From: a virus
DNA: 35,861 bases
IMG/VR virus record: IMGVR_UViG_3300045988_152094
Direction: 5' to 3' (one strand)
Below the pieces are notes generated by a model. It saw only the letters and a list, made by a program, of their open reading frames with translations, searched no databases and was not told where the DNA came from. Below are positions 4,763 through 28,247 of this stretch, piece after piece; position 1 is the first letter of the stretch, and the number at the start of each line of letters is the position of its first letter. The position numbers were made by a program, and so were the translations under genes.

Positions 4763-4768
4763 ACTCAC

Positions 4769-6159: not shown

Positions 6160-6162
6160 GGC

Positions 6163-13610: not shown

Positions 13611-13646
13611 GATCGGTTCAACCAAGCCAATTGCAGCGAACCGATC
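13611..13646. other. inverted repeat GATCGGTTC-N18-GAACCGATC in the control region
   Basis: Read directly: 9-bp perfect arms at 13611-13619 and 13638-13646. Confidence 0.7.
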
Positions 13647-13675
13647 ACCCCCGGCATCCGCAGAATCTCAACGAA

Positions 13676-13869: not shown

Positions 13870-13899
13870 TTGTGAGTCCCTCGCCGGGGTGTGTACGCT
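13870..13899 (+). promoter_or_regulatory. early-type promoter on the plus strand: -35 TTGTGA (13870-13875), 18-nt spacer, -10 TACGCT (13894-13899), ATG at 13906
   Basis: cgcTTGTGAgtccctcgccggggtgtgTACGCTggagccATG. Confidence 0.5.
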
Positions 13900-13905
13900 G
13901 GAGCC

Positions 13906-15201: not shown

Positions 15202-15204
15202 CCT
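15199..15204 (+). promoter_or_regulatory. late-type box TAGCCT, 6 nt before the terL ATG
   Basis: TAGCCTgagcctATG. No SD and no -35 match. The TAG is also the terS stop codon. Confidence 0.3.
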
Positions 15205-15210
15205 GAGCCT

Positions 15211-16935
15211 ATGCCGGCCGTTACAACTTCAGACCGCGCTCGCGCCCATGGCCTCTCGCCGGAGGTCCGCTGGTACTGCGAGAGCCGCGGCTACAGGATC
15301 CCCGAGTGGACGAAGCCCCTGTGGCGCACGCCCGAGCCCGGCGAGGAGCAGGGCGCCCGCTTCGACCCCGCTCGCGTTGACCGCGTGATCGCCGCGCTGC
15401 GGGCGCTGCGGCACACGCAGGGCGAGTGGGCTGGCAAGCCGCTGGAGCCGTCCCCGTGGCAGGTGGCCTACGTCCTGGCGCCCATCTTCGGGTGGGTGGT
15501 CGAGGACGCCGACGGTAAGACAGTCCGTTGGTACCGCGACGCCTGGGTCGAGGTCCCCCGCAAGAACGGCAAGACGACCCTGAGCGCCGCAATCATGGTC
15601 TACCTGGCCTTCGCAGACGGCGAGGGTGGCGCGCAGGTTCTCCTCGCCGCCGGTTCGAAGGACCAGGCCCGGCTCGCTTACGACCCGATCGCGCTCGCGG
15701 TCGGTGCGTCACCGCAGATGGCGGACGCCGGCGTGCGCGCCTGGAAGTCGAAGATCATCCGCGCGGCCGACGGCGCGGTCATCAAGCCTGTCGCGAGCGT
15801 AGGCGACACACTCCAGGGGACGAACCCGCACGGCTACCTGGCCGATGAGATGCACGTCCACAAGGATCTCGACCTCATTCAGTCGCTCGAGACCGGCACC
15901 GGCGCTCGCCGTCAGCCGCTCGGCTTCGTCATCACTACGGCGGACGCTGGCGGCACCATGACGCCGTACGCGGTCCGCCGATCGAGGGCAGAGAGCGACT
16001 GCCGGGGTGAGCCGTCTAGGCGCTACGTGGTGATCTTCGCCGCACCGAGGGGTGCCGACCCGTTCGATGAGGAGACGTGGAAACGGGCGAACCCCGGCTA
16101 TGGCGTCTCACCCACGCGCGAGTCGATGCGCGCTGCGGCCGAGGAGGCCAAGACCGGCCCCGAGGAGCGGGCCGCATTCGAGCGTCTAAGGCTCAACAGG
16201 CGCCTGAAGCAGTCGGCCCGGTACATCGACCTACCCAAGTGGGACAGAAGCGCCCCTACGCCCTTCAGGACGCTCCAGGACCTCGCAGGGCGCCCGGTCG
16301 TGGGCGGCCTGGACCTCGCCAGCGTCTCGGACCTCGCGGCGCTGTGCTGGCTCACCCCGCGGCAGCCAGGCGACCCTAAGGGGACCCCGCTGTGGTCGGC
16401 TGTGTGGCGCACCTGGACCCCGGAGGAGAACCTCAGGGCACTGGACAAGCGCACGCTTGGTGCCGCATCAAGGTGGGTGGAGCAGGGCCTGCTAGAGCTC
16501 ACGCCCGGTGACGTCCTGGACTACGACGTCGTGCAGCGCCGCATCGAGGAGGACGACCGCGAGATGCGCGTCGAGGCGATCGGCTTCGACCCGTGGTCGG
16601 CCACCCAGCTCTCGACGTCGCTCTACGGCCAGGGCCTGCCCATGGTCAAGGTCCGGCAGGGCTACGCGTCGATGAGCGCCCCGCTGAAGCGGATGAAGGC
16701 GCTGGTCTACATGCGGGACCTAGGCCACGACAACCCGATCGCCGACTGGTGCGTCGACAACCTCGCCGTGGCGCGCGACCCATCCGGAAATGTGAAGCCC
16801 GACAAGGCGAAGTCCGGAGAGAAGATCGACCTCGTGGCTGCGCTGGTGACGGCGATGAGCCAGGCGATGATCTTCGACGCCGAGAAGGAGGCCCAGGAGG
16901 CCAGCGAGGAGCATGGCGCCGGCTTCCTGGTGTGA
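15211..16935 (+). CDS. terL: terminase large subunit (574 aa)
   Basis: Terminase_1-like N-terminal ATPase (VEVPRKNGKTT Walker A-like, LADEMH) and a C-terminal nuclease region. Synteny with terS and portal. Confidence 0.9.
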   Translation: MPAVTTSDRARAHGLSPEVRWYCESRGYRIPEWTKPLWRTPEPGEEQGARFDPARVDRVIAALRALRHTQGEWAGKPLEPSPWQVAYVLAPIFGWVVEDADGKTVRWYRDAWVEVPRKNGKTTLSAAIMVYLAFADGEGGAQVLLAAGSKDQARLAYDPIALAVGASPQMADAGVRAWKSKIIRAADGAVIKPVASVGDTLQGTNPHGYLADEMHVHKDLDLIQSLETGTGARRQPLGFVITTADAGGTMTPYAVRRSRAESDCRGEPSRRYVVIFAAPRGADPFDEETWKRANPGYGVSPTRESMRAAAEEAKTGPEERAAFERLRLNRRLKQSARYIDLPKWDRSAPTPFRTLQDLAGRPVVGGLDLASVSDLAALCWLTPRQPGDPKGTPLWSAVWRTWTPEENLRALDKRTLGAASRWVEQGLLELTPGDVLDYDVVQRRIEEDDREMRVEAIGFDPWSATQLSTSLYGQGLPMVKVRQGYASMSAPLKRMKALVYMRDLGHDNPIADWCVDNLAVARDPSGNVKPDKAKSGEKIDLVAALVTAMSQAMIFDAEKEAQEASEEHGAGFLV

Positions 16936-16942
16936 GTCACCG

Positions 16943-16948
16943 TAGGAT
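16943..16948 (+). promoter_or_regulatory. late-type box TAGGAT, 6 nt before the ATG at 16955
   Basis: ccgTAGGATtgacccATG. Compare ccgTAGGCTtagaccATG at 19082. Confidence 0.3.
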
Positions 16949-16954
16949 TGACCC

Positions 16955-17155
16955 ATGACACCAACCCGCATGACCGTAGCGCTGACTGATGACACTCAGT
17001 TGTCAGTCAGAATCCGACCGATAAGTCTCATTTTGTGGCGCGTTAAGCGCGTGCTCCGGTTGGAGGCTGAGCTGGATGGGGAGGCGCTGACCATGTGGGT
17101 GCCTTGGAGGAGCGTGCTGGCAATCGCCATCGCGCCGGAGGAGGAGAACGACTGA
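16955..17155 (+). CDS. hypothetical small protein (66 aa) between terL and portal
   Basis: The ORF fills the gap and its stop overlaps the portal ATG (TGATG). Codon bias in the first half is weak. Confidence 0.4.
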   Translation: MTPTRMTVALTDDTQLSVRIRPISLILWRVKRVLRLEAELDGEALTMWVPWRSVLAIAIAPEEEND

Positions 17156-19080
17156 TGGCGTTGACGGCGAGAGGCGGGGCGCTTACCCGCCTGACCGTCG
17201 CGGACCCCCCGATCACGCTCCGAAGCGTGCGGGGGCGCTCCGCGATGGCCGGGGCCACTACTGGCGTGAGCATCCGCAGCGTGTGGGAGTCGCAGCCGAG
17301 CGTGCGCAAGGTCGTAACGTTCATGGCGAGCACGGTCGCTGCACTCCCGTGGCGTGTCTACCGCGCTGAGGACGGCGGCCGGGAGCGGCTTTACGACTCA
17401 CCGGCTGAACTTCTTGTGCGCAGGCCCACACGGTTCACATCTTCTGCAGACCTTGTGACAGGTCTCGCTCTCGACTGGCTGCTGTACGGCTCAGCCTGCG
17501 CGGTGCTGGTCAACGAGGAGATCGTCCGCGTCCCCGCCTCGCTGCTCATGCTCAGCACGGATGTTTTCGGCCGGGTGAACGACGTAGCCACCGTCGCCGG
17601 CGGGGAAACCATCAGCTTGTCAGACCTCCCTGTGGCGCTCATGCACGGCTGGGACCCGGACGGCACGGGAGCCGTGGCGCCGGTGCGCACGCTGCGATCC
17701 CTGCTGTCCGAGCTCAGTGAAGCCGAGGGGTGGCGCCGCCGCATGTGGACCGACGTCCCGCGCGTGGCCGCTCAGGTGACCCGCCCCAAGGACGCGCCGC
17801 GTTGGTCTGACGAGAAGCGCGAGCGCTTCCTCCAGGCCATGGCCGACTTCAAGTCCTCGACGTCGGGCGGCTCCATCCCGGTGATGGAGGATGGTATGAG
17901 GCTGGAGAGCGCGCCACAGGTGCAGCCGGACCTCTCCAGCGCGTCGAGCGTCCGCACCCTGACCGACATCGAGGTCGCCGGCTACTTCGGAGTCCCGCCG
18001 GAGCTGCTGGGCATGCGCGAGGCCAACTACGGCGGGTACGCCGCCCTGAGACGGGACCTGTACACCCGCGTGCTAGGGCCGCTCATCGGCCGCATCGAGG
18101 ACGCGCTGAACGCCGAGATCGTCCCTGCACTCGCCGGTGGCGACACCTCCGTCTACGGCGTGCTCGACCGCACCGAGGCTCAGGACGGCACGCTGCTCGA
18201 GCGCGTTCAGGCACTCCAGTCCGCCACCGGCGGCCCCGTGATGACCCGCGCCGAGGCGCGTGAGCGCCTAGACCTGCCGTATCTGGAGGGCACGGAGGAG
18301 CTCATCGTCCCGCTGAACGTGATCCAGGGCGGGCAGGCGAGCCCCACAGACTCTGGCTCGCAGAACCTCGATGGGTCGGACACGAACCAGCTCGACCATC
18401 GCCAGCAGGACGAGGCAGCCGAGGAGGGGAAGTCTCAGGCCCCAAAAGCCCGAATGGTCTTGAAGGCCGTAACTTCAAGACCGTCGCCTTCGATTCTGGA
18501 GCGGATGCGCCGCGCCTACGTCGATGAGCTCCAGCGTGAGGGCTTGAGCGAATCCGCCGTCGAGTCCCTCGCCGACCGCATCGAGCCGTTCCTGGCCGAG
18601 CAGGCCGTAGATGCGGCCAACCTGGTGATCCTTCGGTCCGGCACCGGGTCCGGGACCATCGGGCGTGGCGCGATCCGCAACTACATCCGGCAGATGGCGG
18701 AGGGCAAGGCGGGTGCCGCCGTTGACGCTGCGATGCGCCTTCTCGGCGCTGCAGCCTCCGACGACGCAGCGCAGGACAGGGCCCGAGAGACCATCGAGGA
18801 CATCCTCTCCGAGGACCGCCTCGGGCTGTGGGCGGACGCGTCGACGAAGGATGCCACGGGCTTCGGGTCCCAGGAGGGGGCCCGGCGCTCCGGCGCCATC
18901 CGGAAGATGTGGGTCCACAACGGTTCGAGCCACCCACGAGCGGATCACGCTGCGATGGACGGCGAGACGGTCGACATGGACGACACATTCTCCAACGGCA
19001 TGCGCTGGCCCCACGACTGGGGCGGTGGGGACGCCGACGACATCGTGGGCTGCAACTGCGATATCGCATACGTGTGGTGA
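17155..19080 (+). CDS. portal protein (HK97-type) fused to a C-terminal MuF / SPP1 gp7-like head morphogenesis domain (641 aa)
   Basis: Portal-like N-terminal ~400 aa. C-terminal end RADHAAMDGETVDMDDTFSNGMRWPHDWGGGDADDIVGCNCDIAY matches the MuF signature (H..dG ... P ... C.C). Confidence 0.85.
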   Translation: MALTARGGALTRLTVADPPITLRSVRGRSAMAGATTGVSIRSVWESQPSVRKVVTFMASTVAALPWRVYRAEDGGRERLYDSPAELLVRRPTRFTSSADLVTGLALDWLLYGSACAVLVNEEIVRVPASLLMLSTDVFGRVNDVATVAGGETISLSDLPVALMHGWDPDGTGAVAPVRTLRSLLSELSEAEGWRRRMWTDVPRVAAQVTRPKDAPRWSDEKRERFLQAMADFKSSTSGGSIPVMEDGMRLESAPQVQPDLSSASSVRTLTDIEVAGYFGVPPELLGMREANYGGYAALRRDLYTRVLGPLIGRIEDALNAEIVPALAGGDTSVYGVLDRTEAQDGTLLERVQALQSATGGPVMTRAEARERLDLPYLEGTEELIVPLNVIQGGQASPTDSGSQNLDGSDTNQLDHRQQDEAAEEGKSQAPKARMVLKAVTSRPSPSILERMRRAYVDELQREGLSESAVESLADRIEPFLAEQAVDAANLVILRSGTGSGTIGRGAIRNYIRQMAEGKAGAAVDAAMRLLGAAASDDAAQDRARETIEDILSEDRLGLWADASTKDATGFGSQEGARRSGAIRKMWVHNGSSHPRADHAAMDGETVDMDDTFSNGMRWPHDWGGGDADDIVGCNCDIAYVW

Positions 19081-19084: not shown

Positions 19085-19090
19085 TAGGCT
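19085..19090 (+). promoter_or_regulatory. late-type box TAGGCT, 6 nt before the protease ATG
   Basis: ccgTAGGCTtagaccATG. No SD. Confidence 0.3.
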
Positions 19091-19096
19091 TAGACC

Positions 19097-19786
19097 ATGA
19101 AGCGAACCGTTCAGAAGCACGCCCGCGCTTGTATCACCGTGGGTACAAGCAAGGCCGCGGCCAGCCGACGTCGGGAGGACGAGAAGCCCGAGGACGATAA
19201 GCCCGAGGACGAGAAGCCCGAGGACGATAAGCCCGAGGACGAGAAGCCCGAGGACGAGAAGCCCGAGGACGAGAAGCCCGAGGACGAGAAGCCGAAGCGC
19301 AAGTCAGAGCCCGGCATCTTCACCGCCCTCGTCGCCGTCTTCGGCAACGTGGACGCCGACGGCGAGGTGACCGACAAGGGCGCCTTCACCGAGGCGCTTG
19401 CCGCGCGTCCCACGGTCCCGATCATGTGGAGCCACGGATACGGCACCTCCGACATCGTGGGCTACTCGACGAGGGCTGAGGAGACCGACGAGGGGCTTCT
19501 GCTGGAGTGGAAGGCGCTCGACACCGAGATTGGCCGCTCTGTAGCGGAGCTGCTTGAGGTGGGCGCCATCACGGACTTCTCGTACTCAGCGGTCGTTGAG
19601 GACTACACCGTGGAGAAGGGCGAGGAGGGCGAAATCCGCCACCTCACTAAACTGGACCTGTGGGAGGCCGGGCCGTGCCTGCGCGGCGCGAACCCCCTCG
19701 CCAAACTGAAGTCCCAGGACACCCCTAGGACTGATGATGCCGCGCAGCGGACCGCCCGTGCCCGGCTGGCCCTCTTGGGCCTCTGA
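19097..19786 (+). CDS. HK97-family prohead protease with an N-terminal (EDEKP)8 acidic repeat extension (229 aa)
   Basis: IFTALVAVFGNVDADGEVTDKGAFTEAL...PIMWSHG matches the S78/U35 protease pattern. Position between portal and capsid. Confidence 0.85.
   Translation: MKRTVQKHARACITVGTSKAAASRRREDEKPEDDKPEDEKPEDDKPEDEKPEDEKPEDEKPEDEKPKRKSEPGIFTALVAVFGNVDADGEVTDKGAFTEALAARPTVPIMWSHGYGTSDIVGYSTRAEETDEGLLLEWKALDTEIGRSVAELLEVGAITDFSYSAVVEDYTVEKGEEGEIRHLTKLDLWEAGPCLRGANPLAKLKSQDTPRTDDAAQRTARARLALLGL
19175..19294. repeat. 15-bp in-frame tandem repeat, 8 copies (gaggacga[g/t]aagccc), encoding EDEKP/EDDKP
   Basis: Read directly. Units start at 19175, 19190, 19205, 19220, 19235, 19250, 19265 and 19280. 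Confidence 0.95.
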
Positions 19787-19807
19787 CCACCGAAAGGAAT
19801 GCACCGT

Positions 19808-21040
19808 ATGAGCACTCGTGATGAGCTGCTTCAGGAGGCAGGCGAGCTGCGCGCTAAGAGCGAGCTGACTGAGGCCGACCTCGCCCGAGTTGACGAGATC
19901 GTCGACTCCGTCGCCAAGATGGACGCCCAGGCGGCCGCCCGCAAGGCCGCTTCCGACAAGCTGGCCGCCATTGCCGAGCGTGCCCCCCGGGCTGCCCGAG
20001 CTGTGGACTCCGTTGTTGACGCCTCCGGCCTCACCATCGGCAAGCGCTTCATCACCTCCCCTGAGTGGCAGGCGTTTAAGAAGTCGCACCCCATGGGCTT
20101 CTCCAGCGCTACCGACTCCGTCGACCTGCTGGTGCGGGGTCTCGTCCCGGACATGGTCGGCAAGGCTGCAGCCCTCGACCGCGGCACGGCCACCACCGGA
20201 GGCAGCGCTTTCCACCTCGGCTCCCCGATCGACGACGAGGTCCGTGCCCAGTACGGCCCGCTGCTGGCCGCGATCACCACCTCCACCACGAGCGCCGCGG
20301 TCATCCCGTACCGCGCTCTGACTGCCGTCACCCCCGGCCCGGCCATCGTGTCCGAGGCCAAGAACGACACCGGCACCACCCCCGCGGACGGTGTGTTCCC
20401 GATGGCGACCGTCGCGACTCGGGCGGACACCGCCACCACGTCCACCGTCGGCGAGGCACTCCCCGTGACTGACGACGAGATGGCGGACGACTCCCTCATG
20501 GAGACCCTGGTGGGTGAGGTCGTCCTCGCCATGACCATGCAGAAGGTCGAGACCGAGGTTGTGTCTGGCACTGGCACCGCTGACCGCCCCCGCGGCGTCA
20601 TCGGCGCGCCCGGCGTCCGCACCCAGGCCAAGGTCACCGCAGGCACCAAGGTCGACATCCCGGCCACGATCCGCAAGGCTCTCACCTCACTGGGCAACTC
20701 CGCCCAGAACGCGACCATCGTCGTGAACCCCGAGGACCTCGAGGCCCTGGACCTGCTCACCGACAAGAACGACCGCTACCTCGGCGCCGGCCCGTTCGGC
20801 TCCGGCAACGACTCGGTGTGGCGCCGCCCGATCGTGGCCTCCACCGCGGTCACCAAGGGCACCGCCCTCGTCGGCGACCTGAAGGCGTACGAGCTGTACT
20901 GGCGTGAGCAGTACGTCGCTCAGGTCTTCAACCAGCACAGCGACTACCCGCTGCGCGGCCTCGCTCTGTTGCGCGGTAAGGCCCGGTTCCTCGGCGTCTT
21001 CCGCCGCCGCAAGGACGTCTGCGTCGCGACCATCGCCTGA
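19808..21040 (+). CDS. major capsid protein, HK97 fold (410 aa)
   Basis: Follows the prohead protease. Has an N-terminal coiled-coil delta-like domain (STRDELLQEAGELRAKSELTEADLARV). Size and composition are typical. SD AAAGGAA sits 9 nt before the ATG at 19808. Confidence 0.9.
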   Translation: MSTRDELLQEAGELRAKSELTEADLARVDEIVDSVAKMDAQAAARKAASDKLAAIAERAPRAARAVDSVVDASGLTIGKRFITSPEWQAFKKSHPMGFSSATDSVDLLVRGLVPDMVGKAAALDRGTATTGGSAFHLGSPIDDEVRAQYGPLLAAITTSTTSAAVIPYRALTAVTPGPAIVSEAKNDTGTTPADGVFPMATVATRADTATTSTVGEALPVTDDEMADDSLMETLVGEVVLAMTMQKVETEVVSGTGTADRPRGVIGAPGVRTQAKVTAGTKVDIPATIRKALTSLGNSAQNATIVVNPEDLEALDLLTDKNDRYLGAGPFGSGNDSVWRRPIVASTAVTKGTALVGDLKAYELYWREQYVAQVFNQHSDYPLRGLALLRGKARFLGVFRRRKDVCVATIA

Positions 21041-21053
21041 CGCAGTGCTACGC

Positions 21054-21096
21054 CGAGGCCCCCGGTTGACTCAGAGAGAGAGTCCCGGGGGCCTCG
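21054..21096 (+). terminator. stem-loop terminator after the capsid gene; 12-bp stem
   Basis: CGAGGCCCCCGG (21054-21065) pairs with CCGGGGGCCTCG (21085-21096), followed by tgctttgcg. Confidence 0.7.
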
Positions 21097-21111
21097 TGCT
21101 TTGCGCCACAC

Positions 21112-21141
21112 TTGACAACAGAACATCCGGCGCCCTAATGT
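21112..21141 (+). promoter_or_regulatory. consensus-like promoter: -35 TTGACA (21112-21117), 18-nt spacer, -10 TAATGT (21136-21141)
   Basis: cTTGACAacagaacatccggcgcccTAATGTggtggc. It lies directly after the capsid terminator and 36 nt before the SD-led gene at 21177. Confidence 0.6.
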
Positions 21142-21176
21142 GGTGGCACACCAACTACCGAGAAGGGGCCAAGGCC

Positions 21177-21404
21177 ATGAACCGAATCCAGTCAGTCGCC
21201 ACGTGGGTCGCGATCGTGTCCCTCATCCTGTCCGCCGTTCTCGCGGGCCTGTACCTCTACCGAGTGGGGCAGACCCCGTCCGACAGTGAGCTGCTGATCC
21301 GGCAGGACGGGTACTCAGTCACCGACACCCCCGCCCACCCCGGGGACCTCGGCCCTAAGGAGGCCATCATCGGTCCGGCCGCAGAAGCCCCGTCATTCGC
21401 CTAA
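21177..21404 (+). CDS. small single-pass membrane protein (75 aa), moron gene 1
   Basis: SD GAAGGGG. N-terminal TM helix VATWVAIVSLILSAVLAGLYLY followed by a Pro/Asp-rich tail. Confidence 0.6.
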   Translation: MNRIQSVATWVAIVSLILSAVLAGLYLYRVGQTPSDSELLIRQDGYSVTDTPAHPGDLGPKEAIIGPAAEAPSFA

Positions 21405-21415
21405 GGAGGCGCACC

Positions 21416-21814
21416 ATGCAGACCACCAGATACAACATATTCAGTGACGGCTCGATCGCCATCGTGACCACCAGAGTCGCCCGCCAAGGAATCGAGGTCA
21501 TCGGAGAGGCGCCGTACCCCCTGATGCCGGGCCAAGACCACAGAGACGTCATCCCCTACGCAGGGCTGCGCAGGCGTACAGAGGACGTGTGCGACCGCCT
21601 CGTCGAAGCCCGTGAGGCACTCATGCGCTGTGGCTACGTATCTGCGTGCCCGATCGCCAACACACTGAACGTCTGCATCCCCCGAACCGGCGGCGAAGAC
21701 TTTCACTGCGCGACCATCTACGGCGACTACAACGGCCTCAGCATCTCTGGGCCCCTGGCCGGGTCGTTGGCCCGAATCCTCGACGCTGAGGGGGTGAGGG
21801 TGCTCGTAGACTGA
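21416..21814 (+). CDS. hypothetical Cys-containing cytoplasmic protein (132 aa), moron gene 2
   Basis: Strong SD AAGGAGG-N7-ATG. Uses codons that are rare for this genome (aga, ata, caa, aca, gta, tct). No domain recognised. Confidence 0.7.
   Translation: MQTTRYNIFSDGSIAIVTTRVARQGIEVIGEAPYPLMPGQDHRDVIPYAGLRRRTEDVCDRLVEAREALMRCGYVSACPIANTLNVCIPRTGGEDFHCATIYGDYNGLSISGPLAGSLARILDAEGVRVLVD
21807..21812 (+). promoter_or_regulatory. late-type box TAGACT, 6 nt before the ATG at 21819
   Basis: gTAGACTgagcatATG. No SD. Confidence 0.3.
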
Positions 21815-21818
21815 GCAT

Positions 21819-22355
21819 ATGGCCGCATACCTCTGCTCTATCGCCGCGCTCGCGCGATCGCTTGGCAAGTCGGAACAAGATCCGAACCTGATCTACGCCG
21901 TCGATCGCGCGAGCTCCCGTTTTCGTTCCGCCGTTGGCCACAACGTCACCAAGGAAACCAAGACCCTGATCCTGGATCCGCCCGCGGGGGAGACGCTGCT
22001 TCTGCCGGTCAAGGGCATCGCCTCCCTTACCGTCAAGCTGGGCGGGATCCAGCTGGAGCACCTCATCTACTCCCCGCGCACAGGCGCCCTTCGCCGGCAC
22101 GGGGGCTGGGGCACCGAACTAGGAACCATCGAGGTTACGTACACCGCGGGTAGCGACGAAGTCCCCGAGGACGTGGCGGACGCGGTGGCGGAGCAGGCAG
22201 CCAGCATCTATGCCACCCTCGCAACGCCGGGCGTACAGCAGATCAGCCAGGGGGTCCGGTCTATCACCTTCGGCACAGCGTCCACGGTGGGCACCACACA
22301 GCGGTGGACCGAAGCGGTTGAGCGCCATCGTCTCGACGGGCAGGGCGTCCTATGA
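21819..22355 (+). CDS. head-tail adaptor (gp6-like connector) (178 aa)
   Basis: An N-terminal pattern (LCSIAALARSLGKSEQDPNLIYAVDRASSRFRSAVG) typical of gp6-like connectors. First of four short genes between capsid and major tail. Confidence 0.65.
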   Translation: MAAYLCSIAALARSLGKSEQDPNLIYAVDRASSRFRSAVGHNVTKETKTLILDPPAGETLLLPVKGIASLTVKLGGIQLEHLIYSPRTGALRRHGGWGTELGTIEVTYTAGSDEVPEDVADAVAEQAASIYATLATPGVQQISQGVRSITFGTASTVGTTQRWTEAVERHRLDGQGVL

Positions 22356-22705
22356 GCGTGTGGTCGACGCTGTTTGGCGCGGAGACCCTCACAGTCACCG
22401 AGCCGGTAGAGACCGAGGACGCCCACGGCGCCCCAAGGAGGACGTACCCCGCGGCCGCATCTCGCCGAATCGACGGAGTCGATGTCCAGGCGGGCCCTAC
22501 GGGCGAGGACAACTCCCATCGGGAGGGGGAGTCTTGGGATCAGGTCGCCTATGTGGACTCTGCTGCTGTAGCCTCACTGACGAAGCACGCACGCATCGAG
22601 TGGCGCGGGCAGGCATACCGGCTCGTCGGGCCGGTCCGAATCATGACCGGAGCGGGGCTTACGCCCGACGCTGCGGTGCTCAACCTACGACGCTGGGAGG
22701 GCTGA
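22352..22705 (+). CDS. head closure / head-tail joining protein (117 aa)
   Basis: Call rests on synteny and size. ATGA overlap with the upstream gene. Confidence 0.6.
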   Translation: MSVWSTLFGAETLTVTEPVETEDAHGAPRRTYPAAASRRIDGVDVQAGPTGEDNSHREGESWDQVAYVDSAAVASLTKHARIEWRGQAYRLVGPVRIMTGAGLTPDAAVLNLRRWEG

Positions 22706-23001
22706 TGGGGTCAGTCAAGATCGAGTTCCACTACGACGGGTTCAACGAGCTGCGAAAGTCGTTCCAGTCCGAGATAGACGCGCTGGGCGAGGGGTTCGCA
22801 GCGAGCGCGTGCGCGATGGCGGAGCAGACTGAGGGGGACTCGGTGCGAGGCGGGCAGCCCGATGCCTCGGAAGAGCCCTTTGAGTACGAGTCGAAGCCCA
22901 ACGCCACCCGCGCCCGCGGCGTCGTCAAGACCGCCACCTTCAAGGGGCGGCGGGCCCAGGCCAGAGACGACGTTCTCACGCGAGCGGTACTTGGGGGCTG
23001 A
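22705..23001 (+). CDS. neck / tail completion protein (HK97 gp10-like position) (98 aa)
   Basis: Start at MGSVKIEF in a TGATG overlap. Call rests on synteny only. Confidence 0.5.
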   Translation: MGSVKIEFHYDGFNELRKSFQSEIDALGEGFAASACAMAEQTEGDSVRGGQPDASEEPFEYESKPNATRARGVVKTATFKGRRAQARDDVLTRAVLGG

Positions 23002-23003
23002 CT

Positions 23004-23408
23004 ATGCCGCAGCTGATGCTCCCTAAGGACGCGCTGCCGCCCCTCATCGCCGCGCTCCGCACAGAGTGTCCCAAAACCGTGGGCGCCCCGGTCTCGGTCT
23101 CGACCATTCTGCCCAAGGATCCAGGGGCTGGGAACACGATCCACGTGTACGTGGCCGGGGGCTACCCCAAGAGCATGGTGTCCTCGGTGTCCGTGGTGCT
23201 GATGCACTGCTACGCGGCTGACGGGCCTGCAGCGCAGCGCCTCGCGGCGACCGCTGCCGCTGTCGTCGCGCTCGACCGTCAGGAGTGGCACTCGGGCCGC
23301 GTGCAGAGCGGGCCCTACGACAACCCGCACCCGGACTACCCGCACCTGCATCGGTACTCGGTGCAGTGTGAGGTCACCACGGAGTCCGAGCGCGTCGACG
23401 TAGACTAG
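23004..23408 (+). CDS. tail terminator protein (134 aa)
   Basis: Last short gene before the major tail protein. Call rests on size and synteny. Confidence 0.55.
   Translation: MPQLMLPKDALPPLIAALRTECPKTVGAPVSVSTILPKDPGAGNTIHVYVAGGYPKSMVSSVSVVLMHCYAADGPAAQRLAATAAAVVALDRQEWHSGRVQSGPYDNPHPDYPHLHRYSVQCEVTTESERVDVD
23401..23406 (+). promoter_or_regulatory. late-type box TAGACT upstream of the major tail gene (leadered)
   Basis: gTAGACTaggacc overlaps the stop of 23004..23408. It is followed by a stem-loop and SD AAGGAGG. Confidence 0.3.
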
Positions 23409-23425
23409 GACCAAGCCCGCCCGAG

Positions 23426-23442
23426 GTGCGGGGACCCCGCAC
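23426..23442 (+). other. short GC stem-loop in the major tail leader
   Basis: GTGCGGG gac CCCGCAC, a 7-bp stem with a 3-nt loop. No U tract follows. Confidence 0.4.
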
Positions 23443-23457
23443 AACAAGGAGGACTGA

Positions 23458-24036
23458 ATGCCCGTCAACGGCAAGAGCGACGCCTCAAACGTCATCGCCC
23501 CGAAGCCAATGTCCGTTATCGGCGGTGTGTTTGTGTGCACCACCGAGGACGCCAAGAAGATCACCGCCCACGTCGACCTCGCCAACGCTCCAACCGGCGT
23601 AACGCTCGAGGCGATCGGCTACCTCACGGACGCAGGCCCGAAGCGGTCGATCTCCAACTCCACATCGAAGGTGAAGGCCTGGGGCGGCGACGTCATCCTG
23701 TCCACTCGCGAAGGCGCCGAGGCCTCGGTGGAGATCCCCGTCGCTGAGTACCTGAACGTGACCGGCCACAAGCTCGTCTACGGCGACGCCAACGTCGAGA
23801 AGAACGGCAAGAACATCACAATCAAGGGCAAGCTCAACGAGATCCCTCCGCACCGCGGCATTGTGGTTGTCGTCAACACTGACGTGGCCCGTGGCACCAT
23901 TGTCTACGATGATGCACAGGCCGTCATCGATGGCGACGTCGAGATGAACGGCAAGGACATCATGTCCAACACCCTGAAGCTTGACCTGTTCCCGGTAGAC
24001 GGCTGTTTCTACCGCGAGTTCTGGGTGAAGAACTGA
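23458..24036 (+). CDS. major tail protein (192 aa)
   Basis: Strong SD AAGGAGG. Size and position immediately before the G/G-T chaperone pair. Confidence 0.8.
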   Translation: MPVNGKSDASNVIAPKPMSVIGGVFVCTTEDAKKITAHVDLANAPTGVTLEAIGYLTDAGPKRSISNSTSKVKAWGGDVILSTREGAEASVEIPVAEYLNVTGHKLVYGDANVEKNGKNITIKGKLNEIPPHRGIVVVVNTDVARGTIVYDDAQAVIDGDVEMNGKDIMSNTLKLDLFPVDGCFYREFWVKN

Positions 24037-24427: not shown

Positions 24428-24810
24428 CGGAGGCCTACCGCTATGAGAGTGCGGTGAGGTCCGATTTGCTCAGGACGGGGCGGTCGCTCGACGACGTGTG
24501 GAGCGGCCGCCTCTCCTGGCAGGATCTAAAGGCGTACCTCACCTGTCCACAACCGGGGTCCTGCCTGGCTATAGCTCGGGGCGCCTGGTCGCCCAACGAA
24601 CACATGCAGTCGCTCGTTGTGCACCTCCTGCGCATCCTGTCGTGGCAGACCGCCGGAGACAAGCGTGTGGACCCCCCGGAGTACATGCCCGTTACAAGCC
24701 TGATCCGCCCGCCCGAGTCCGAGGCTGACAACGCCTCGCCGTACGGCGAGGGCACTACGATTGAAGAGATGCGACGCATCCTGAACCTTCCGGAGGACCT
24801 TGATGGCTGA
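24068..24810 (+). CDS. tail assembly chaperone G-T, predicted -1 frameshift product (join 24068..24409, 24409..24810; about 247 aa)
   Basis: The -1 frame is open from 24388 to 24810 and has no good start of its own. The only slippery candidate in the 40-nt overlap is GGGGGAA at 24406-24412. The T part (LSWQDLKAYL...) ends inside the tape measure start. Confidence 0.6.
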
Positions 24811-27418
24811 CGGGCCCAAGCTCGCGACCGCGTACTACGAACTGATCGCCGCATCCCCCGGCGCCGAGAAGCAGATCACTGACATACTCCTTCCGGCAGC
24901 CGCAGGGGCGGGTAAATCTGCGGGGGTGTCAGCCGGCGAAGCCATTGGCGAGGGCGGTGCCGAGGGCGGGTCCAAGTTCGGCAGCCTCTTCGGCGAGAAG
25001 TTGCAGGGCGCCATCAACCCCACGTTGATCGCTGCGGCCCTCGGAACCGCAGCGATCGGGGTCGGCAAGGCGCTGTACGACATCGGGGCCGAGTTCGATG
25101 ACATGTCGGACACCATCCGCGCCGGGACCGGAGCCACGGGCGAGGCCCTGGAGAGCCTGGAGAAGAGCGCACAGAAGGTCGCCACGACTGTGCCCACCAC
25201 GTTCGAGGACGCGGGCCAGACAGTCGCAGACCTCAACACCCGCCTCGGCCTCACCGGGGATGAGCTCGAGACCGTGGCGGAGCAGGTCATCGCCGCCGGA
25301 GACCTCTTTGGGGAGAAGCTTGACATCAACAAGCTCTCCTCCGCGATGTCCGCCTTCGCCATCCCGGCCAGCGAGACTTCCGAAGTCATGGACGAGCTAT
25401 TCCGCGTCAGCCAGGCCACCGGGGTGTCAATCAACACCCTCGCTGAGTCCTCGGCCAAGGCGGCCCCAACGCTGGGCAACATGGGCTTCGACATCGAGGA
25501 CGTCGCGTCCATGGTCGGCCTTCTCGACAAGGCAGGTCTCAACTCCACGGCCACCATCTCCGCCATGGGCAAGGGGATGGTCTCCCTTGCCAAGGACGGG
25601 GAGGCCCCAAAGGACGCCTTCACCCGAGTCATCGGGGAGATCGACAACCTCGTCAAGTCCGGAGACCAAGCCGCAGCGCTCACCCAGGCGGGCAAGATCT
25701 TCGGCACCAAGGGGGCCCCGCAGTTCCTCGAGGCGTTGCAGGCGGGGGCGTTCGACCTCAGCACCCTGCGCGACTCCATCGGGGCCACAGGAGACACCAT
25801 CTTGGGGGTTCAGGCGGAGACGGCCGACGGGCCCGAGAAGTTCCAGATCGCTGTGAACAAGGTGAAGGTTGCGCTGCAACCGCTCGCCACCACTGTGTTT
25901 GACGGGGTTGCGACGGCGCTCGACTGGCTGACACCCAAGCTGGAAACCTTCATGGCCTGGGTCAGCGAGAACCCGCAGCTCGTCCAGGGACTGGCGGTGG
26001 CTCTAGGCATCCTGTCTGCCGCCATCTTTGTGGCCGCGGCAGCCCAGTGGGCAATGAATAGCGCCTTGCTGGCATCGCCTATTACCTGGATCATCGTCGG
26101 AATCGGGGCCATAGTCGCCGCCATCGCGCTACTGGTGCTTAACTGGGACTCGGTGTGGCCGGTCCTCGTGGGCGCGTGGGATGCCATTGTCGCAGCGTGG
26201 CAGGTGGCTTGGGACTGGATCTCCGGCTTCTTCTCAGGAATCTGGGACGGTGTCACCACGTTTATCATGGGGATCCCAGATGCGATCATGAATTTCCTGT
26301 CGGGCATTTGGGACTCGATCACCACGTTTTTCCAGCAGATGTGGGACGGGCTTGTCGAGTTCATCACGAACATCCCGAGCATGATCATGTCTGGCCTCGG
26401 GACCATCTGGGACGGCCTGGGGGCCCTGTGGTCCATGGCCTGGGAGGGCATCAAACAGATACTCATCATGTCCCTGTCGGGGCTCCTGTTTGTCATCATC
26501 GGCATCCCGCAGCTCGCCCTCACGTTCCTCAAGGAGCTGTGGAACGACCTGCCAGCTATCTGGAACGCGGTGTGGACTGGGATCACGTCCTTCATCTCGA
26601 ATACCTGGAACGGGCTGGTCAACACGGTGAAGTCCGTGGGATCCTCGGTCGTTAACTTCGCAGTGAACCTGTGGAACAACCTCCCCGCCATCTGGAACTC
26701 CATCTGGAATGGCATCACGTCCTTCTTCTCGGGCATCTGGAACGGCCTTCTCAACACCGCGTCCAACATCGGGAACAACATAATCAACTTCCTGGTAAAC
26801 CTGTGGAACTCGATCCCTGGGCTGTGGTCCTCAGCGTGGAACAACATCAAGAGCCTCGTCACGTCCGCGGTAACGGCCATGTACAACGAGGCCAAGAATG
26901 AGGCCAACAACATGCTGAACTGGTTCAAGGAGCTCCCGGGCAAGATCAAGGACTTCTTCTCCAACGCGGGGAGCTGGCTCCTCGATGCGGGTAAGAACAT
27001 CATCAACGGCTTCCTGAACGGCCTCAAGCAGGCGTTCACCAACGTCCAGGACTGGGTCGGCGGGATCGGTGACTGGATCAAGGACCACAAGGGGCCGAGG
27101 GCTTACGACCTCCGACTCCTCGTGCCCGCCGGCGGCTGGATCATGGACGGCCTCCAGACAGGTCTGCGGGGCGCTATGCCCGAGCTCGAGCGGACGATGC
27201 GGGACATCACCAACGGCATCAAGGTCGGCTTCGAGGACCCGGCGGCCCGGACGGCCTGGAAGGTGAGCCGCGGGTTCAGTCCCGACGTCGAGCAGGGTGC
27301 AGCGGCGCCTAGCGGCGTGCAGCCCACGATCAACATCACGAACCACTACCCGCAGAAGCAGGAGGACTGGAAGACACGGAGCGACGTCGCGCAGGGCATC
27401 GCACTGGCGCTCTCCTAA
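24803..27418 (+). CDS. tape measure protein (871 aa)
   Basis: SD GGAGG sits 6 nt before the ATG at 24803. Long Ala/Gly-rich helical N-terminus, TM-like central segment, and W-rich repeats. Position after G/G-T. Confidence 0.9.
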   Translation: MADGPKLATAYYELIAASPGAEKQITDILLPAAAGAGKSAGVSAGEAIGEGGAEGGSKFGSLFGEKLQGAINPTLIAAALGTAAIGVGKALYDIGAEFDDMSDTIRAGTGATGEALESLEKSAQKVATTVPTTFEDAGQTVADLNTRLGLTGDELETVAEQVIAAGDLFGEKLDINKLSSAMSAFAIPASETSEVMDELFRVSQATGVSINTLAESSAKAAPTLGNMGFDIEDVASMVGLLDKAGLNSTATISAMGKGMVSLAKDGEAPKDAFTRVIGEIDNLVKSGDQAAALTQAGKIFGTKGAPQFLEALQAGAFDLSTLRDSIGATGDTILGVQAETADGPEKFQIAVNKVKVALQPLATTVFDGVATALDWLTPKLETFMAWVSENPQLVQGLAVALGILSAAIFVAAAAQWAMNSALLASPITWIIVGIGAIVAAIALLVLNWDSVWPVLVGAWDAIVAAWQVAWDWISGFFSGIWDGVTTFIMGIPDAIMNFLSGIWDSITTFFQQMWDGLVEFITNIPSMIMSGLGTIWDGLGALWSMAWEGIKQILIMSLSGLLFVIIGIPQLALTFLKELWNDLPAIWNAVWTGITSFISNTWNGLVNTVKSVGSSVVNFAVNLWNNLPAIWNSIWNGITSFFSGIWNGLLNTASNIGNNIINFLVNLWNSIPGLWSSAWNNIKSLVTSAVTAMYNEAKNEANNMLNWFKELPGKIKDFFSNAGSWLLDAGKNIINGFLNGLKQAFTNVQDWVGGIGDWIKDHKGPRAYDLRLLVPAGGWIMDGLQTGLRGAMPELERTMRDITNGIKVGFEDPAARTAWKVSRGFSPDVEQGAAAPSGVQPTINITNHYPQKQEDWKTRSDVAQGIALALS
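26537..26870. repeat. 132-bp (44-aa) tandem repeat in the tape measure, 2.5 copies (LWN.LPAIWN..W.GITSF..)
   Basis: CTGTGGAAC restarts at 26537, 26669 and 26801. The protein segments ELWNDLPAIWNAVWTGITSFISNTWNGLVNT and NLWNNLPAIWNSIWNGITSFFSGIWNGLLNT align. Confidence 0.85.
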
Positions 27419-27419: not shown

Positions 27420-27425
27420 TAGACT
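27420..27425 (+). promoter_or_regulatory. late-type box TAGACT, 6 nt before the ATG at 27432
   Basis: taagTAGACTgggtccATG. No SD. Confidence 0.3.
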
Positions 27426-27431
27426 GGGTCC

Positions 27432-28247
27432 ATGGCCCACGACTCATACGCAATCGACGGCATCCCGCTGGATGAACCAGCAGGACGCTGGCGACTAACA
27501 TCCAAGACCGAGCTTCCGCAGTGGGGCTCAATGGTCTCCCCCAGTGCCAAAATTCCTCACCGCAACGGCGTTCTCCCGATCGCGCCGATTGCCGCCGGGG
27601 TGTCCACGGTGAAGCTAGAGATCCTCATTCCGGCGGCTCACCAGACCATCGGGTTGCGCACCCTCCGGGCGATCACGGGCGCCAGGTCCCTCCACCTCAT
27701 GGCGTGGACACGTGCTTCCGGGGACGAGACCCTGGAGGCCGACGTGCGAGTGTCCTCGTCGGTCTCGGTGAAGGAGCACGGTGTGGACGGGGACCTGCTG
27801 GTCTCCTTCACGGTCGAGGCCGTCGATGGCGAGTGGCGCAAGAAGGTCCCAGAAAAGGTCGACGTGGGGACCAACAAGCGGAAGTCCTTCCCGATCATCA
27901 CGGGGAAGGACGCTCTGGTGCCCGCCATCGCGGTGAAGGCGGACACGGACGGGGGCACCGTAACGGTGCGCGACACTATCGGCCCGTCCGCCATGTCTGT
28001 CGGGCGGGTGCCCAGCACCTCCTGGCTCCTGGTCGACACGGAGAACTGGGATGTCCGCAACATTCCCACGGGCAAGGAGCAGACCGCTGGGGAGGACGAC
28101 GTCAGCCGCATGCCCCGGGCCGAGCGGTCCACCCCGACGTTGTCGATAACGCCCGGCGGGTTCCGGCTGGCTCAGCGCTCCGACGGCGACGGCGTGGTTG
28201 AGGTAGTCGGGGGATCAGCACTCCTGTGGTGGAAGGGGGCGTACTGA
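27432..28247 (+). CDS. distal tail protein (Dit-like) (271 aa)
   Basis: First gene after the tape measure. Size is typical of siphovirus Dit. Confidence 0.65.
   Translation: MAHDSYAIDGIPLDEPAGRWRLTSKTELPQWGSMVSPSAKIPHRNGVLPIAPIAAGVSTVKLEILIPAAHQTIGLRTLRAITGARSLHLMAWTRASGDETLEADVRVSSSVSVKEHGVDGDLLVSFTVEAVDGEWRKKVPEKVDVGTNKRKSFPIITGKDALVPAIAVKADTDGGTVTVRDTIGPSAMSVGRVPSTSWLLVDTENWDVRNIPTGKEQTAGEDDVSRMPRAERSTPTLSITPGGFRLAQRSDGDGVVEVVGGSALLWWKGAY

What the first reader, a model, noticed from the sequence alone, without database searches (positions are those of the whole stretch)
21054..21814. Two-gene moron with its own terminator and consensus-like promoter between the capsid and head-tail genes
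The capsid gene is followed by a 12-bp-stem terminator (21054-21096). Next comes TTGACA-N18-TAATGT (21112-21141), the only TTGACA-type promoter on the late arm. Two SD-led genes unrelated to morphogenesis follow: a 75-aa single-pass membrane protein (21177..21404), and a 132-aa protein with five cysteines (21416..21814) that uses codons rare for this genome (aga, ata, caa, aca, gta, tct).

An early-type promoter in the middle of the late operon, atypical codon usage, and an insertion between conserved neighbours (capsid and adaptor) are the hallmarks of a moron. Possible roles include superinfection exclusion, abortive-infection or defence, or an anti-defence pair. Neither protein resembles anything I recognise.
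Basis: partly seen in the sequence, partly recalled or inferred. Interest (0 to 1): 0.65.

Follow-up and report, generated by a model that had tools for sequence, protein, structure and literature searches.

The report
Accessory gene slot after capsid gene
Just after the capsid gene of an uncultured, apparently lytic Actinomyces phage, a conserved hairpin and host-type promoter drive two fast-evolving, swappable genes of unknown function (a small membrane protein and an orphan soluble protein); this is an accessory "cargo slot", not a textbook moron.

Summary
The sequence features are real. The hairpin at 21054-21096 is very stable and is kept in 17 relatives with compensatory changes. TTGACA-N18-TAATGT (21112-21141) is conserved, and it is the only full -35/-10 promoter on the late strand; six more drive the early arm. 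Genes A (75 aa, one membrane helix plus a disordered acidic tail) and B (132 aa, confident fold with no known match) are genuine coding genes.

The moron reading is only partly right.
- No terminator follows B, whose stop codon lies 4 nt from the adaptor gene's start.
- The phage shows no integrase or repressor.
- Hairpin-plus-promoter junctions punctuate the whole genome.
- Hairpin, promoter and A are fixed in the close lineage.

Three things still mark this as an accessory slot.
- B is missing from a sister clade.
- A and B are the most allele-rich genes nearby and reassort independently.
- A more distant relative has the same hairpin and promoter but carries a homing-endonuclease-like gene and a promoter-lipoprotein-terminator cassette instead.

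My best guess is early expression by host polymerase. A probably acts at the cell envelope (superinfection exclusion or receptor masking). B's role is unknown. Interest is moderate.

The parts
19808..21040 (+). Major capsid protein gene (upstream neighbour). The likely true start is ATG 19808, not 19799.
   Evidence: Pfam Phage_capsid 3.7e-20 and phrog_10. SD GAAAGGA lies 9 nt before ATG 19808.
21054..21096 (+). Conserved stem-loop that closes the capsid transcript. It is a terminator or a 3' end stabiliser, with a 12-bp outer stem, a 5-bp inner stem and no U-tract.
   Evidence: dG -44.1, z -6.2; 100% pairing in the outer helix across 17 sequences; 5 pairs changed on both sides.
21112..21141 (+). 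SigA/sigma-70-type promoter TTGACA-N18-TAATGT, of the same class as six promoters on the early arm.
   Evidence: 7 sites found, 0.48 expected; the only one on the + strand. Conservation.
21148..21176 (+). Predicted 5' leader of gene A. It holds the conserved CACACCAAC(C/T)ACCGA motif and the SD GAGAAGGGG (21160-21168).
   Evidence: Near-invariant columns. The same ACCGA(A/G)AGG context precedes the capsid gene. The transcription start site is inferred, not measured.
21177..21404 (+). Gene A: a 75-aa membrane protein with one predicted membrane helix (res 7-25 by hydropathy; AF2 helix 3-31), a disordered acidic proline-rich tail and a conserved C-terminal (E/D)APxxA.
   Evidence: dN/dS 0.53. 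5 allele classes. No Pfam, PHROG, NCBIfam or PADLOC family.
21416..21814 (+). Gene B: a 132-aa soluble orphan protein with an alpha/beta fold and SD AAGGAGG at 21403-21409. It is absent from the sister clade.
   Evidence: AF2 pLDDT 88.9. No PDB match at E<=1e-3. BFVD: its own family, plus one weaker match (E 6.7e-5, 19% identity) to an uncharacterised phage protein. 3 real clusters among 1.84 billion representatives. dN/dS 0.25.
21807..21821 (+). TAGACT-N6-ATG: a putative -10-only promoter giving a leaderless adaptor mRNA. It overlaps the last codons of B (GTA GAC TGA).
   Evidence: Kept as TAGA(C/A)T-N6-9-ATG in all clades whatever gene lies upstream. TANNNT-N6-ATG occurs 12 times against 1.6 expected. 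Function is inferred.
21819..22355 (+). Head-tail adaptor gene (downstream neighbour).
   Evidence: phrog_442 1e-22. 74-95% identical in relatives.

Best explanation
The window is essentially the whole genome of an uncultured, apparently virulent siphophage of oral Actinomyces. Its genome is cut into many short transcription units by strong hairpins that are directly followed by promoter elements.

One such junction lies just after the capsid gene: the hairpin at 21054-21096 and a full host SigA-type promoter at 21112-21141. This junction acts as a conserved expression slot for exchangeable accessory genes.

In this phage the slot holds two genes:
- A, a membrane protein with one helix. By the charge distribution its N-terminus is probably inside the cell, with a roughly 45-residue acidic, disordered tail outside.
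- B, a soluble protein with a confidently predicted fold that matches no solved structure.

The promoter belongs to the same class as the six that drive the replication (early) arm. The surrounding late genes instead start with -10-only, leaderless-type signals. I therefore infer that unmodified host RNA polymerase transcribes A and B from early in infection. That transcript then reads on into the adaptor gene, which also has its own -10 element.

The most likely role of A is at the cell envelope: superinfection exclusion, or masking of a receptor or entry route. In a more distant relative a lipoprotein occupies the same slot and may do the same job. B is an independent, dispensable accessory factor, possibly for counter-defence or host take-over.

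Shown: the sequence elements, their conservation, the coding status of both genes, the mosaicism, and the presence/absence pattern of B. Inferred: promoter activity and timing, membrane topology, and both functions.
For: - Hairpin: structure and covariation.
- Promoter: class and strand distribution; conservation.
- Late genes start with TANNNT-N6-ATG and no SD. There are 12 sites against 1.6 expected, all on the coding strand of their arm. The adaptor's TAGACT-N6-ATG is kept in three different upstream contexts. In Mycobacterium tuberculosis, another actinobacterium, TANNNT lies 7-12 bp upstream of transcription starts and about a quarter of genes are leaderless (PMC3898074).
- Slot behaviour: B is absent in L023, L035, L037 and L038. 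L036 has capsid, then a hairpin with TTGACA-N18-TAGTCT, a 339-aa Hint/LAGLIDADG-like gene, a second promoter, a 144-aa lipoprotein, a terminator (-38.9 kcal/mol), then TAGAAT-N9-ATG and the adaptor.
- Fast, independent evolution. Identity to the window is 41-51% for A and 54-83% for B across most related loci, where the capsid is about 77% and the adaptor about 90%. dN/dS is 0.53 and 0.25, against 0.07-0.11 for the neighbours. Recombination breakpoints fall exactly at the A/B borders. Among 19 genomes A has 5 allele classes and B has 6, against 2-3 for capsid, adaptor and major tail protein.
- A is a one-helix membrane protein with an acidic tail.
- B is an orphan family found only in this phage lineage with no PDB fold match.
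- Host: the endolysin is 70% identical to an Actinomyces provencensis sequence over its N-terminal 142 residues.
- No integrase or repressor was found.
- Small envelope proteins and lipoproteins are the usual phage exclusion factors, for example HK97 gp15 (PMC3594210) and the Ltp lipoprotein (PMC3952083 abstract).
Against: - There are no expression data, so the promoter and its timing rest on sequence alone.
- No terminator follows B, so the same promoter would also transcribe the neck and tail genes. It could exist mainly for them.
- A is fixed in every close relative, which also fits an essential phage function.
- A shows no similarity to any known exclusion protein, and nothing matched PADLOC.
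- Within the second capsid group, A allele class does not track the class of the 718-aa tail gene at 28226-30382, which I took to be the tail tip. No co-variation with the injection apparatus was therefore detected, although the sample is small.
- The -10 in the clade lacking B is CACACT, a poorer match.
- The hairpin has no U-tract, so termination efficiency is unknown.
Confidence: 0.5

Rival explanations
1. Restart promoter for the neck and tail genes. The capsid hairpin attenuates transcription so that capsid mRNA is in excess, and the promoter re-initiates transcription for the downstream connector and tail genes. On this reading A and B are simply the first genes of that operon, with morphogenetic roles. 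B might be a head-completion, decoration or chaperone protein, and A might tether assembly to the membrane.
For: - No terminator separates B from the adaptor; the gap is 4 nt.
- Hairpin-plus-promoter junctions are general punctuation in this genome.
- Hairpin, promoter and A are universal in close relatives.
- A shares the capsid gene's ribosome-binding context ACCGA(A/G)AGG.
- The clade lacking B also has strongly diverged neck proteins: Hc1, g98 and g134 are about 47% identical. A B-neck dependence is therefore not excluded.
Against: - The adaptor has its own conserved -10-type element in all contexts.
- B is dispensable in a sister clade.
- Three B allele classes that are 53-74% identical to the window's B occur with the same capsid, Hc1, g98 and g134 classes.
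- dN/dS for A and B is 3-7 times that of the structural neighbours.
- L036 fills the slot with a homing-endonuclease-like gene and a lipoprotein that has its own terminator.
- A membrane protein is not expected in a siphophage virion.
- There is no structural match to known head or neck proteins; the best PDB hit has E 0.12 and TM 0.26.
Confidence: 0.25
2. B (with or without A) is a counter-defence protein, for example an anti-CRISPR or anti-restriction factor. It would be made early from a strong host-type promoter embedded in the structural region. From my own memory, not checked here, the anti-CRISPR loci of Mu-like Pseudomonas phages are arranged this way.
For: - B is small and soluble, forms an orphan family, and has many alleles and a patchy distribution.
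- An early-type promoter drives it.
- It is mildly acidic, pI 5.3.
- Its predicted fold is new.
Against: - No helix-turn-helix regulator gene accompanies it.
- It has no homology to any known inhibitor.
- dN/dS of 0.25 shows ordinary purifying selection.
- Nothing links it to any particular defence system of Actinomyces.
Confidence: 0.15
3. A is a lysis-timing protein (holin, antiholin or similar), and A with B is a lysis-control pair.
For: A is a small protein with one membrane helix. It gives a very weak PHROG holin hit (phrog_297, E 0.05).
Against: - The hit covers only the membrane helix and is not significant.
- A proper lysis region lies elsewhere: amidase 30419-31309 and holin-like 33463-33669 (phrog_6116 9.5e-7).
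- A's tail is acidic and disordered, not the charged basic C-terminus typical of holins (holin features are from general knowledge).
Confidence: 0.05
4. A and B form a toxin-antitoxin or abortive-infection defence pair.
Against: - A and B alleles reassort freely, so they are not co-adapted.
- B is missing from a whole clade while A stays.
- There are no PADLOC, Pfam or NCBIfam hits.
- The phage appears virulent, so there is no lysogen to protect.
Confidence: 0.05

Closest known systems
Classical phage morons, such as HK97 gene 15 (Juhala et al. 2000; reviewed in PMC3594210)
   Same: A small gene (or genes) sits inside a late structural operon between conserved morphogenetic genes and has its own host-type promoter. 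The product is a small membrane protein. The locus varies between related phages.
   Different: - There is no downstream terminator.
- GC content does not differ from the neighbours.
- The carrier phage seems virulent, so expression from a prophage does not apply.
- Hairpin, promoter and gene A are fixed across the close lineage and are not an obvious 'more-on' insert. Only B shows presence/absence.
- A has no sequence similarity to gp15/YebO.
Superinfection-exclusion envelope proteins: S. thermophilus TP-J34 Ltp lipoprotein (PMC3952083), HK97 gp15, and (from memory) T5 Llp, T4 Imm and lactococcal Sie2009
   Same: These are small phage-encoded proteins placed in or on the cytoplasmic membrane. 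Some come from lytic phages and are made early (T5 Llp and T4 Imm, from memory). The relative L036 carries a lipoprotein in the same slot.
   Different: Neither A nor the L036 lipoprotein has sequence or profile similarity to any of these families. No functional data exist, so the analogy rests on location, size and evolutionary pattern alone.
Tab, a moron of Pseudomonas phage JBD26 that blocks tail assembly (PMC10884400)
   Same: It is a small (83-residue) orphan protein encoded inside the late operon (between terS and terL), with no similarity to known domains.
   Different: Tab is expressed from a prophage and defends the lysogen. It sits at a different position in the genome and has no homology to A or B.
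Leaderless, -10-only (TANNNT) promoters of Actinobacteria (M. tuberculosis TSS map, PMC3898074)
   Same: The adaptor gene and about 11 other genes in the window have TANNNT 6 nt upstream of an ATG and no Shine-Dalgarno sequence.
   Different: This comes from a phage of Actinomyces and was not mapped experimentally. It concerns the neighbours of the finding, not genes A and B, which have leaders and SD sites.

Membership tests
Moron (as defined in PMC3594210 after Juhala et al. 2000) | Appears as extra DNA compared with otherwise similar related phages | tested here: inconclusive
   B meets this: it is absent in L023, L035, L037 and L038, where gene A abuts the adaptor. A does not meet it within the close lineage, where it is present in all of about 25 loci. 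In L036 other cargo replaces it, and Arthrobacter phages hold an unrelated gene at that position.
Moron (as defined in PMC3594210 after Juhala et al. 2000) | GC content or composition differs from the surrounding genes | tested here: not met
   GC is 0.66 for A and 0.63 for B, against 0.66-0.69 for the neighbours. GC3 is 0.84 and 0.80. The CAI-like index is 0.74 and 0.61, inside the genome range of 0.48-0.82. B homologues resemble the adaptor. The only signal is a post hoc enrichment of six rare codons in this one B allele.
Moron (as defined in PMC3594210 after Juhala et al. 2000) | Own promoter | tested here: met
   TTGACA-N18-TAATGT is conserved in all relatives. This is met at the sequence level only; activity was not measured.
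Moron (as defined in PMC3594210 after Juhala et al. 2000) | Own terminator downstream of the gene(s) | tested here: not met
   Only 4 nt separate B's stop codon from the adaptor ATG. No stable hairpin lies at 21760-21850 and the scan found no terminator-like site there. The hairpin at 21054-21096 lies upstream and belongs to the capsid gene.
Moron (as defined in PMC3594210 after Juhala et al. 2000) | Expressed from the repressed prophage to benefit the lysogen | tested here: not met
   No integrase, repressor or excisionase was found among the ORFs scanned with Pfam or PHROGs. Every contig carrying the genes is 43 kb or shorter, which is phage-sized. Lysogeny itself cannot be excluded experimentally with these tools.
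Superinfection-exclusion proteins (Ltp, Sie2009, gp15/YebO, Imm, Llp) | Sequence or profile membership in a described family | tested here: not met
   A and B have no significant Pfam, PHROG, NCBIfam or PADLOC hit. A's homologues are restricted to this phage lineage.
Superinfection-exclusion proteins (Ltp, Sie2009, gp15/YebO, Imm, Llp) | Located in the cell envelope | tested here: met
   A has one strongly hydrophobic helix (KD 2.35 at residues 7-25). AF2 gives a helix at 3-31 with pLDDT 84-97. The N-in/C-out orientation is inferred from the charge distribution only.
Superinfection-exclusion proteins (Ltp, Sie2009, gp15/YebO, Imm, Llp) | Blocks adsorption or DNA entry of incoming phage | not testable with these tools
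   This needs expression in Actinomyces followed by phage challenge.
Intrinsic (rho-independent) terminator | Stable GC-rich stem-loop conserved by covariation | tested here: met
Intrinsic (rho-independent) terminator | U-tract directly after the stem | tested here: not met
   The tail reads GUGCUUUGC here and GUGCUAUGC, GUGCUUCGC or GUGCUGCGC in relatives. The consensus terminator scan did not report it. From general knowledge, the need for a U-tract in Actinobacteria is debated.

The most novel reading that the evidence does not exclude
A family of virulent oral Actinomyces phages keeps a dedicated, early-expressed cargo socket (terminator hairpin plus SigA promoter) right after the capsid gene. 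Unrelated envelope-targeted proteins rotate through it: several alleles of a one-helix membrane protein, or a lipoprotein. So do other passengers, namely the new-fold protein B and a homing endonuclease. On this reading A would found a new family of superinfection-exclusion or receptor-masking proteins in lytic actinophages, and B would be a new-fold counter-defence or host take-over factor.
Probability: 0.3. Interest if true: 0.6.

Novelty: new variant of a known kind. Interest (0 to 1): 0.42.

Why it matters
If the reading holds, it gives two untested orphan protein families, one of them with a confidently predicted fold that matches no solved structure. Both come from abundant but uncultured phages of a major human oral genus, and they sit in a defined, conserved expression context that would be easy to clone and test. 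It would also show that moron-like accessory slots exist in apparently virulent actinophages. There they cannot serve lysogen fitness, which points to exclusion or take-over functions during lytic growth.

The surrounding observation is useful for annotating and engineering actinophages: the genome appears to be cut into many hairpin-bounded units with leaderless-type starts. However, no function has been demonstrated, and accessory genes at variable junctions of structural operons are a well-known kind of feature.

Tried and rejected
- Close relatives in INPHARED. Megablast of 19700-23500 found nothing and tblastn of B found nothing. The capsid is only 34-36% identical to Arthrobacter phages.
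- Prophage relatives in 185,579 species genomes, searched with the capsid: none.
- Wider relatives via an adaptor profile in metagenome and IMG/VR contigs: only the same lineages came back.
- Family assignment of A and B in Pfam, PHROGs, NCBIfam and PADLOC: none.
- PDB sequence profile search for B: nothing below E 0.75.
- Foldseek of B against the PDB: no hit at E<=1e-3; the top hit is a PhiKZ neck chain with TM 0.26.
- Foldseek of B against BFVD: its own family, plus an uncharacterised 189-aa phage protein at TM 0.68.
- Exhaustive profile search of 1.84 billion representatives: only the family itself, plus a repeat-driven spurious hit on a 2166-aa protein.
- Zinc-finger or Cys-rich idea for B: rejected, because only 2 of 5 cysteines are conserved.
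- Upstream start for A (the 88-aa gene call P0079, ATG inside the -10): rejected. In relatives that frame hits a stop (GTG TTG TAA) and the leader has indels that are not multiples of three.
- Antisense ORFs 21401-21868 and 21367-21552: rejected on GC by codon position.
- Known RNA families or tRNAs in the window: none.
- Association of A alleles with alleles of the 718-aa tail gene (28226-30382): no clear link beyond clonal relatedness, but the sample is small.
- Literature search for this phage group: nothing specific found.
Full report
WHAT THE WINDOW IS

The 35.9-kb window is essentially a complete phage genome. The longest contigs carrying identical proteins are 35.9-36.1 kb.

The left arm (about 1-13,460) is on the minus strand. 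It encodes an exonuclease, a thioredoxin-domain protein, family A DNA polymerase, an Enc34-type ssDNA-binding protein, an SNF2-type helicase, a DUF2800/PD-(D/E)XK nuclease and a VapE-type primase-helicase.

The right arm is on the plus strand and runs in this order:
- HNH endonuclease, TerS and TerL (15211-16935)
- a 66-aa gene
- portal (17095-19080) and prohead protease (19097-19786)
- major capsid protein (to 21040)
- the two genes of the finding
- head-tail adaptor (21819-22355) and head-closure protein Hc1 (22352-22705)
- tail genes and tape measure (24800-27418)
- amidase endolysin (30419-31309) and a holin-like gene (33463-33669)

No integrase, repressor or excisionase turned up in Pfam or PHROG scans of the ORFs, so the phage looks virulent. 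The endolysin is 70% identical to an Actinomyces provencensis sequence over its N-terminal 142 residues, and 45-61% identical to other Actinomyces and Buchananella sequences. Several samples carrying relatives have HMP-style (Human Microbiome Project) names. The host is therefore very probably an Actinomyces, most likely of the human (probably oral) microbiota. Nothing similar is in the INPHARED phage collection at the DNA level, and the capsid is only 34-36% identical to Arthrobacter phages.

CHECKING THE OBSERVATION

The hairpin is real. The arms at 21054-21065 and 21085-21096 are perfectly complementary. An inner GACTC/GAGTC stem extends them. The fold has -44.1 kcal/mol and z = -6.2 against shuffles. 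Across 17 related sequences the outer helix pairs in every cell, and five pairs change on both sides; no shuffle or slid control reaches that. There is no U-tract, so it could be a terminator or a 3' end stabiliser.

The promoter-like site TTGACA-N18-TAATGT is at 21112-21141. The looser pattern TTGAC-N17-21-TANNNT occurs 7 times against 0.48 expected. Six copies are on the minus strand in front of early-arm genes, and this is the only one on the plus strand. The -35 is invariant (TTGAC) in all relatives, while the spacer drifts. The -10 stays TA[ACG]TGT, or CACACT in one clade.

A and B are true genes:
- both have SD sites
- their GC by codon position matches real genes and the antisense ORFs fail that test
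- dN/dS is 0.53 for A and 0.25 for B

The codon-usage claim is weak. A is typical. B's index (0.61) equals that of the adaptor and Hc1. Only two of B's five cysteines are conserved.

WHAT RELATIVES SHOW

B has 78 homologues at 56-85% identity, all on contigs of phage size. About 25 loci were fetched. All show capsid, hairpin, promoter, a 73-75-aa A, a 130-132-aa B, then the adaptor. The cassette is therefore not strain-specific.

Three observations nevertheless mark the junction as an accessory site.

1. A sister clade (L023, L035, L037, L038) keeps the hairpin, the promoter and a 66-68-aa A but has no B. Its capsid is about 72% and its adaptor 74-80% identical to the window's. There, A's stop is followed within about 10 nt by the adaptor's TAGACT/TAGAAT element.

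2. A and B are the most divergent genes of the region. Identity to the window in most loci is 41-51% for A and 54-83% for B, against about 77% for the capsid and about 90% for the adaptor. They are also exchanged independently. L008 is about 97% identical to the window up to the end of A, then 55-65% across B. L004 and L024 show the reverse. Among 19 genomes A has 5 allele classes and B has 6, in all combinations. The adaptor and major tail protein have 2 each and the capsid has 3.

3. A more distant relative, L036 (capsid 55%, adaptor 54%), has the same design after its capsid gene: a long hairpin containing TTGACA-N18-TAGTCT. Its cargo is different. First comes a 339-aa gene with Hint- and LAGLIDADG-like motifs; I read those motifs by eye and Pfam found nothing. 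Then comes a second promoter-like site, a 144-aa lipoprotein (signal peptide with lipobox IASC) and a -38.9 kcal/mol terminator hairpin, followed by the adaptor.

The Arthrobacter phages Shambre1 and RootBeer keep the wider gene order. Between capsid and adaptor they hold an unrelated, non-membrane 95-99-aa gene, with no hairpin or promoter.

THE TRANSCRIPTIONAL CONTEXT

The adaptor gene has no SD. Instead, TAGACT lies 6 nt upstream of its ATG (21807-21821), overlapping B's last codons. The same TAGA(C/A)T-N6-9-ATG precedes the adaptor in every clade, whether B, A or the lipoprotein's terminator lies upstream.

TANNNT-N6-ATG occurs 12 times in the window against 1.6 expected, always on the coding strand of its arm. 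The sites are at the starts of HNH, TerL, the 66-aa gene, the protease, the adaptor, the 27432 gene, 31327, 31427 and 33766, and on the minus strand at 284, 4702 and 6159. This matches the actinobacterial pattern of -10-only promoters and leaderless mRNAs mapped in M. tuberculosis (PMC3898074).

Strong hairpins (-31 to -44 kcal/mol) directly abut promoter elements at 299-343, 4715-4763, 8041-8078 (with the -35 in the loop) and 33712-33756. Hairpin plus promoter is therefore the general punctuation of this genome.

What is special about the capsid junction is the promoter class. It has a full -35/-10 with a leader and SD, as on the early arm. It sits among late genes that use -10-only, leaderless-type starts.

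THE PROTEINS

A has one hydrophobic helix (residues 7-25 by hydropathy; AF2 helix 3-31). Its tail is disordered, acidic (pI 4.1) and proline-rich, and ends in a conserved (E/D)APxxA. One or two positive charges precede the helix, which suggests N-in/C-out; this is inference.

B is soluble. Its AF2 model is confident (pLDDT 88.9, pTM 0.79): three strands, a long helix, four strands and a helix. It has no PDB match at E<=1e-3. In BFVD it matches its own family and, more weakly (E 6.7e-5, 19% identity), one uncharacterised phage protein. An exhaustive profile search of 1.84 billion representatives found only three clusters of the family, plus a spurious repeat protein.

Neither protein matches Pfam, PHROGs, NCBIfam or PADLOC.

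INTERPRETATION

The best reading is a conserved expression slot after the capsid gene that carries exchangeable accessory genes. These are probably transcribed early by host polymerase.

A is envelope-located, fast-evolving and multi-allelic, and a lipoprotein takes its place in L036. That is the profile of superinfection-exclusion or receptor-masking proteins such as HK97 gp15 (PMC3594210) and Ltp (PMC3952083). B is an independent, dispensable passenger of unknown role; counter-defence is plausible.

The main rival is that the promoter mainly restarts transcription for the neck and tail genes, and that A and B have assembly roles. In its favour, no terminator follows B and A is universal in the lineage. 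Against it:
- the adaptor has its own conserved start element
- B is dispensable
- B alleles are shuffled against constant capsid and neck alleles
- L036 carries cargo that is plainly not morphogenetic

Holin and toxin-antitoxin readings are unlikely.

COMPARISON WITH MORONS

By the definition in PMC3594210, a moron is extra DNA relative to related phages, has deviant GC, has its own promoter and terminator, and is expressed from a prophage. Here only the promoter criterion is clearly met. The extra-DNA criterion holds for B alone. The other three are not met. The element works like a moron, as an autonomous accessory expression unit in a structural operon, but it should not be filed as a classical one.

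VERDICT

The element is a new variant of a known kind. Interest is moderate (0.42) because function is unproven. The cargo-slot pattern, the orphan new-fold protein and the leaderless architecture make clear targets for experiment.

Noticed in passing
window 282-296(-), 4700-4714(-), 6157-6171(-), 13894-13908, 15199-15213, 16943-16957, 19085-19099, 21807-21821, 27420-27434, 31315-31329, 31415-31429, 33754-33768: TANNNT-N6-ATG with no Shine-Dalgarno occurs 12 times against 1.6 expected, always on the coding strand of its arm and mostly at gene starts. N7 variants follow the promoters at 8035, 8412 and 10985. This suggests that many -10-only promoters give leaderless mRNAs on both arms of the phage.
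   Followed up: partly
window 299-343(-), 4715-4763(-), 8041-8078(-), 33712-33756(+), 35827-35861(+): Very stable hairpins (-31 to -44 kcal/mol) are each followed directly by a promoter element. At 8041-8078 the -35 TTGACA lies in the hairpin loop and the 3' arm forms the spacer. The genome seems to be cut into many hairpin-bounded transcription units.
   Followed up: partly
L036 700-2536: In a relative with 55% capsid identity, the capsid-adaptor junction holds two inserts. One is a free-standing 339-aa gene with Hint- and LAGLIDADG-like motifs (no Pfam hit). The other is a promoter, a 144-aa lipoprotein (lipobox IASC) and a terminator, which is a textbook moron layout.
   Followed up: partly
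window 19799-19810: The capsid gene more likely starts at ATG 19808 (SD GAAAGGA 9 nt upstream) than at the first ATG, 19799. Gene callers in relatives also use the later start.
   Followed up: partly
window 17095-19080: The portal protein carries a C-terminal Mu-F-like head-morphogenesis domain (residues about 571-660; Pfam Phage_Mu_F 0.0028, phrog_2468 8e-14). This looks like a portal-MuF fusion.
   Followed up: no
window 13500-13790 and 14465-14514: A markedly AT-rich stretch lies between the divergent arms. An AT-rich 19-nt inverted repeat lies just upstream of terS. These could be an origin, a cos site or a regulatory region.
   Followed up: no
window 31427-33409: A 660-aa protein with weak GDSL-lipase and CBM5/12 hits lies between the amidase endolysin and the holin-like gene. 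It might be a second lytic or cell-wall-modifying enzyme, or a tail-associated one.
   Followed up: no
L001 9643-11382: One relative carries three minus-strand genes (163, 302 and 83 aa) inside the plus-strand tail region, where the others have the tape-measure gene. This could be an insertion or a scaffolding artefact.
   Followed up: no
window 21138-21140: An ATG inside the -10 hexamer led a gene caller to an 88-aa version of A (P0079). Relatives have a stop codon and frame-breaking indels in that stretch, so the 75-aa form is the real one.
   Followed up: yes
window 33682-33912: The ORF called from 33682 contains a perfect 22-bp hairpin (33712-33756) followed by TACTAT-N6-ATG at 33766, in frame. 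The real gene may start at 33766.
   Followed up: no
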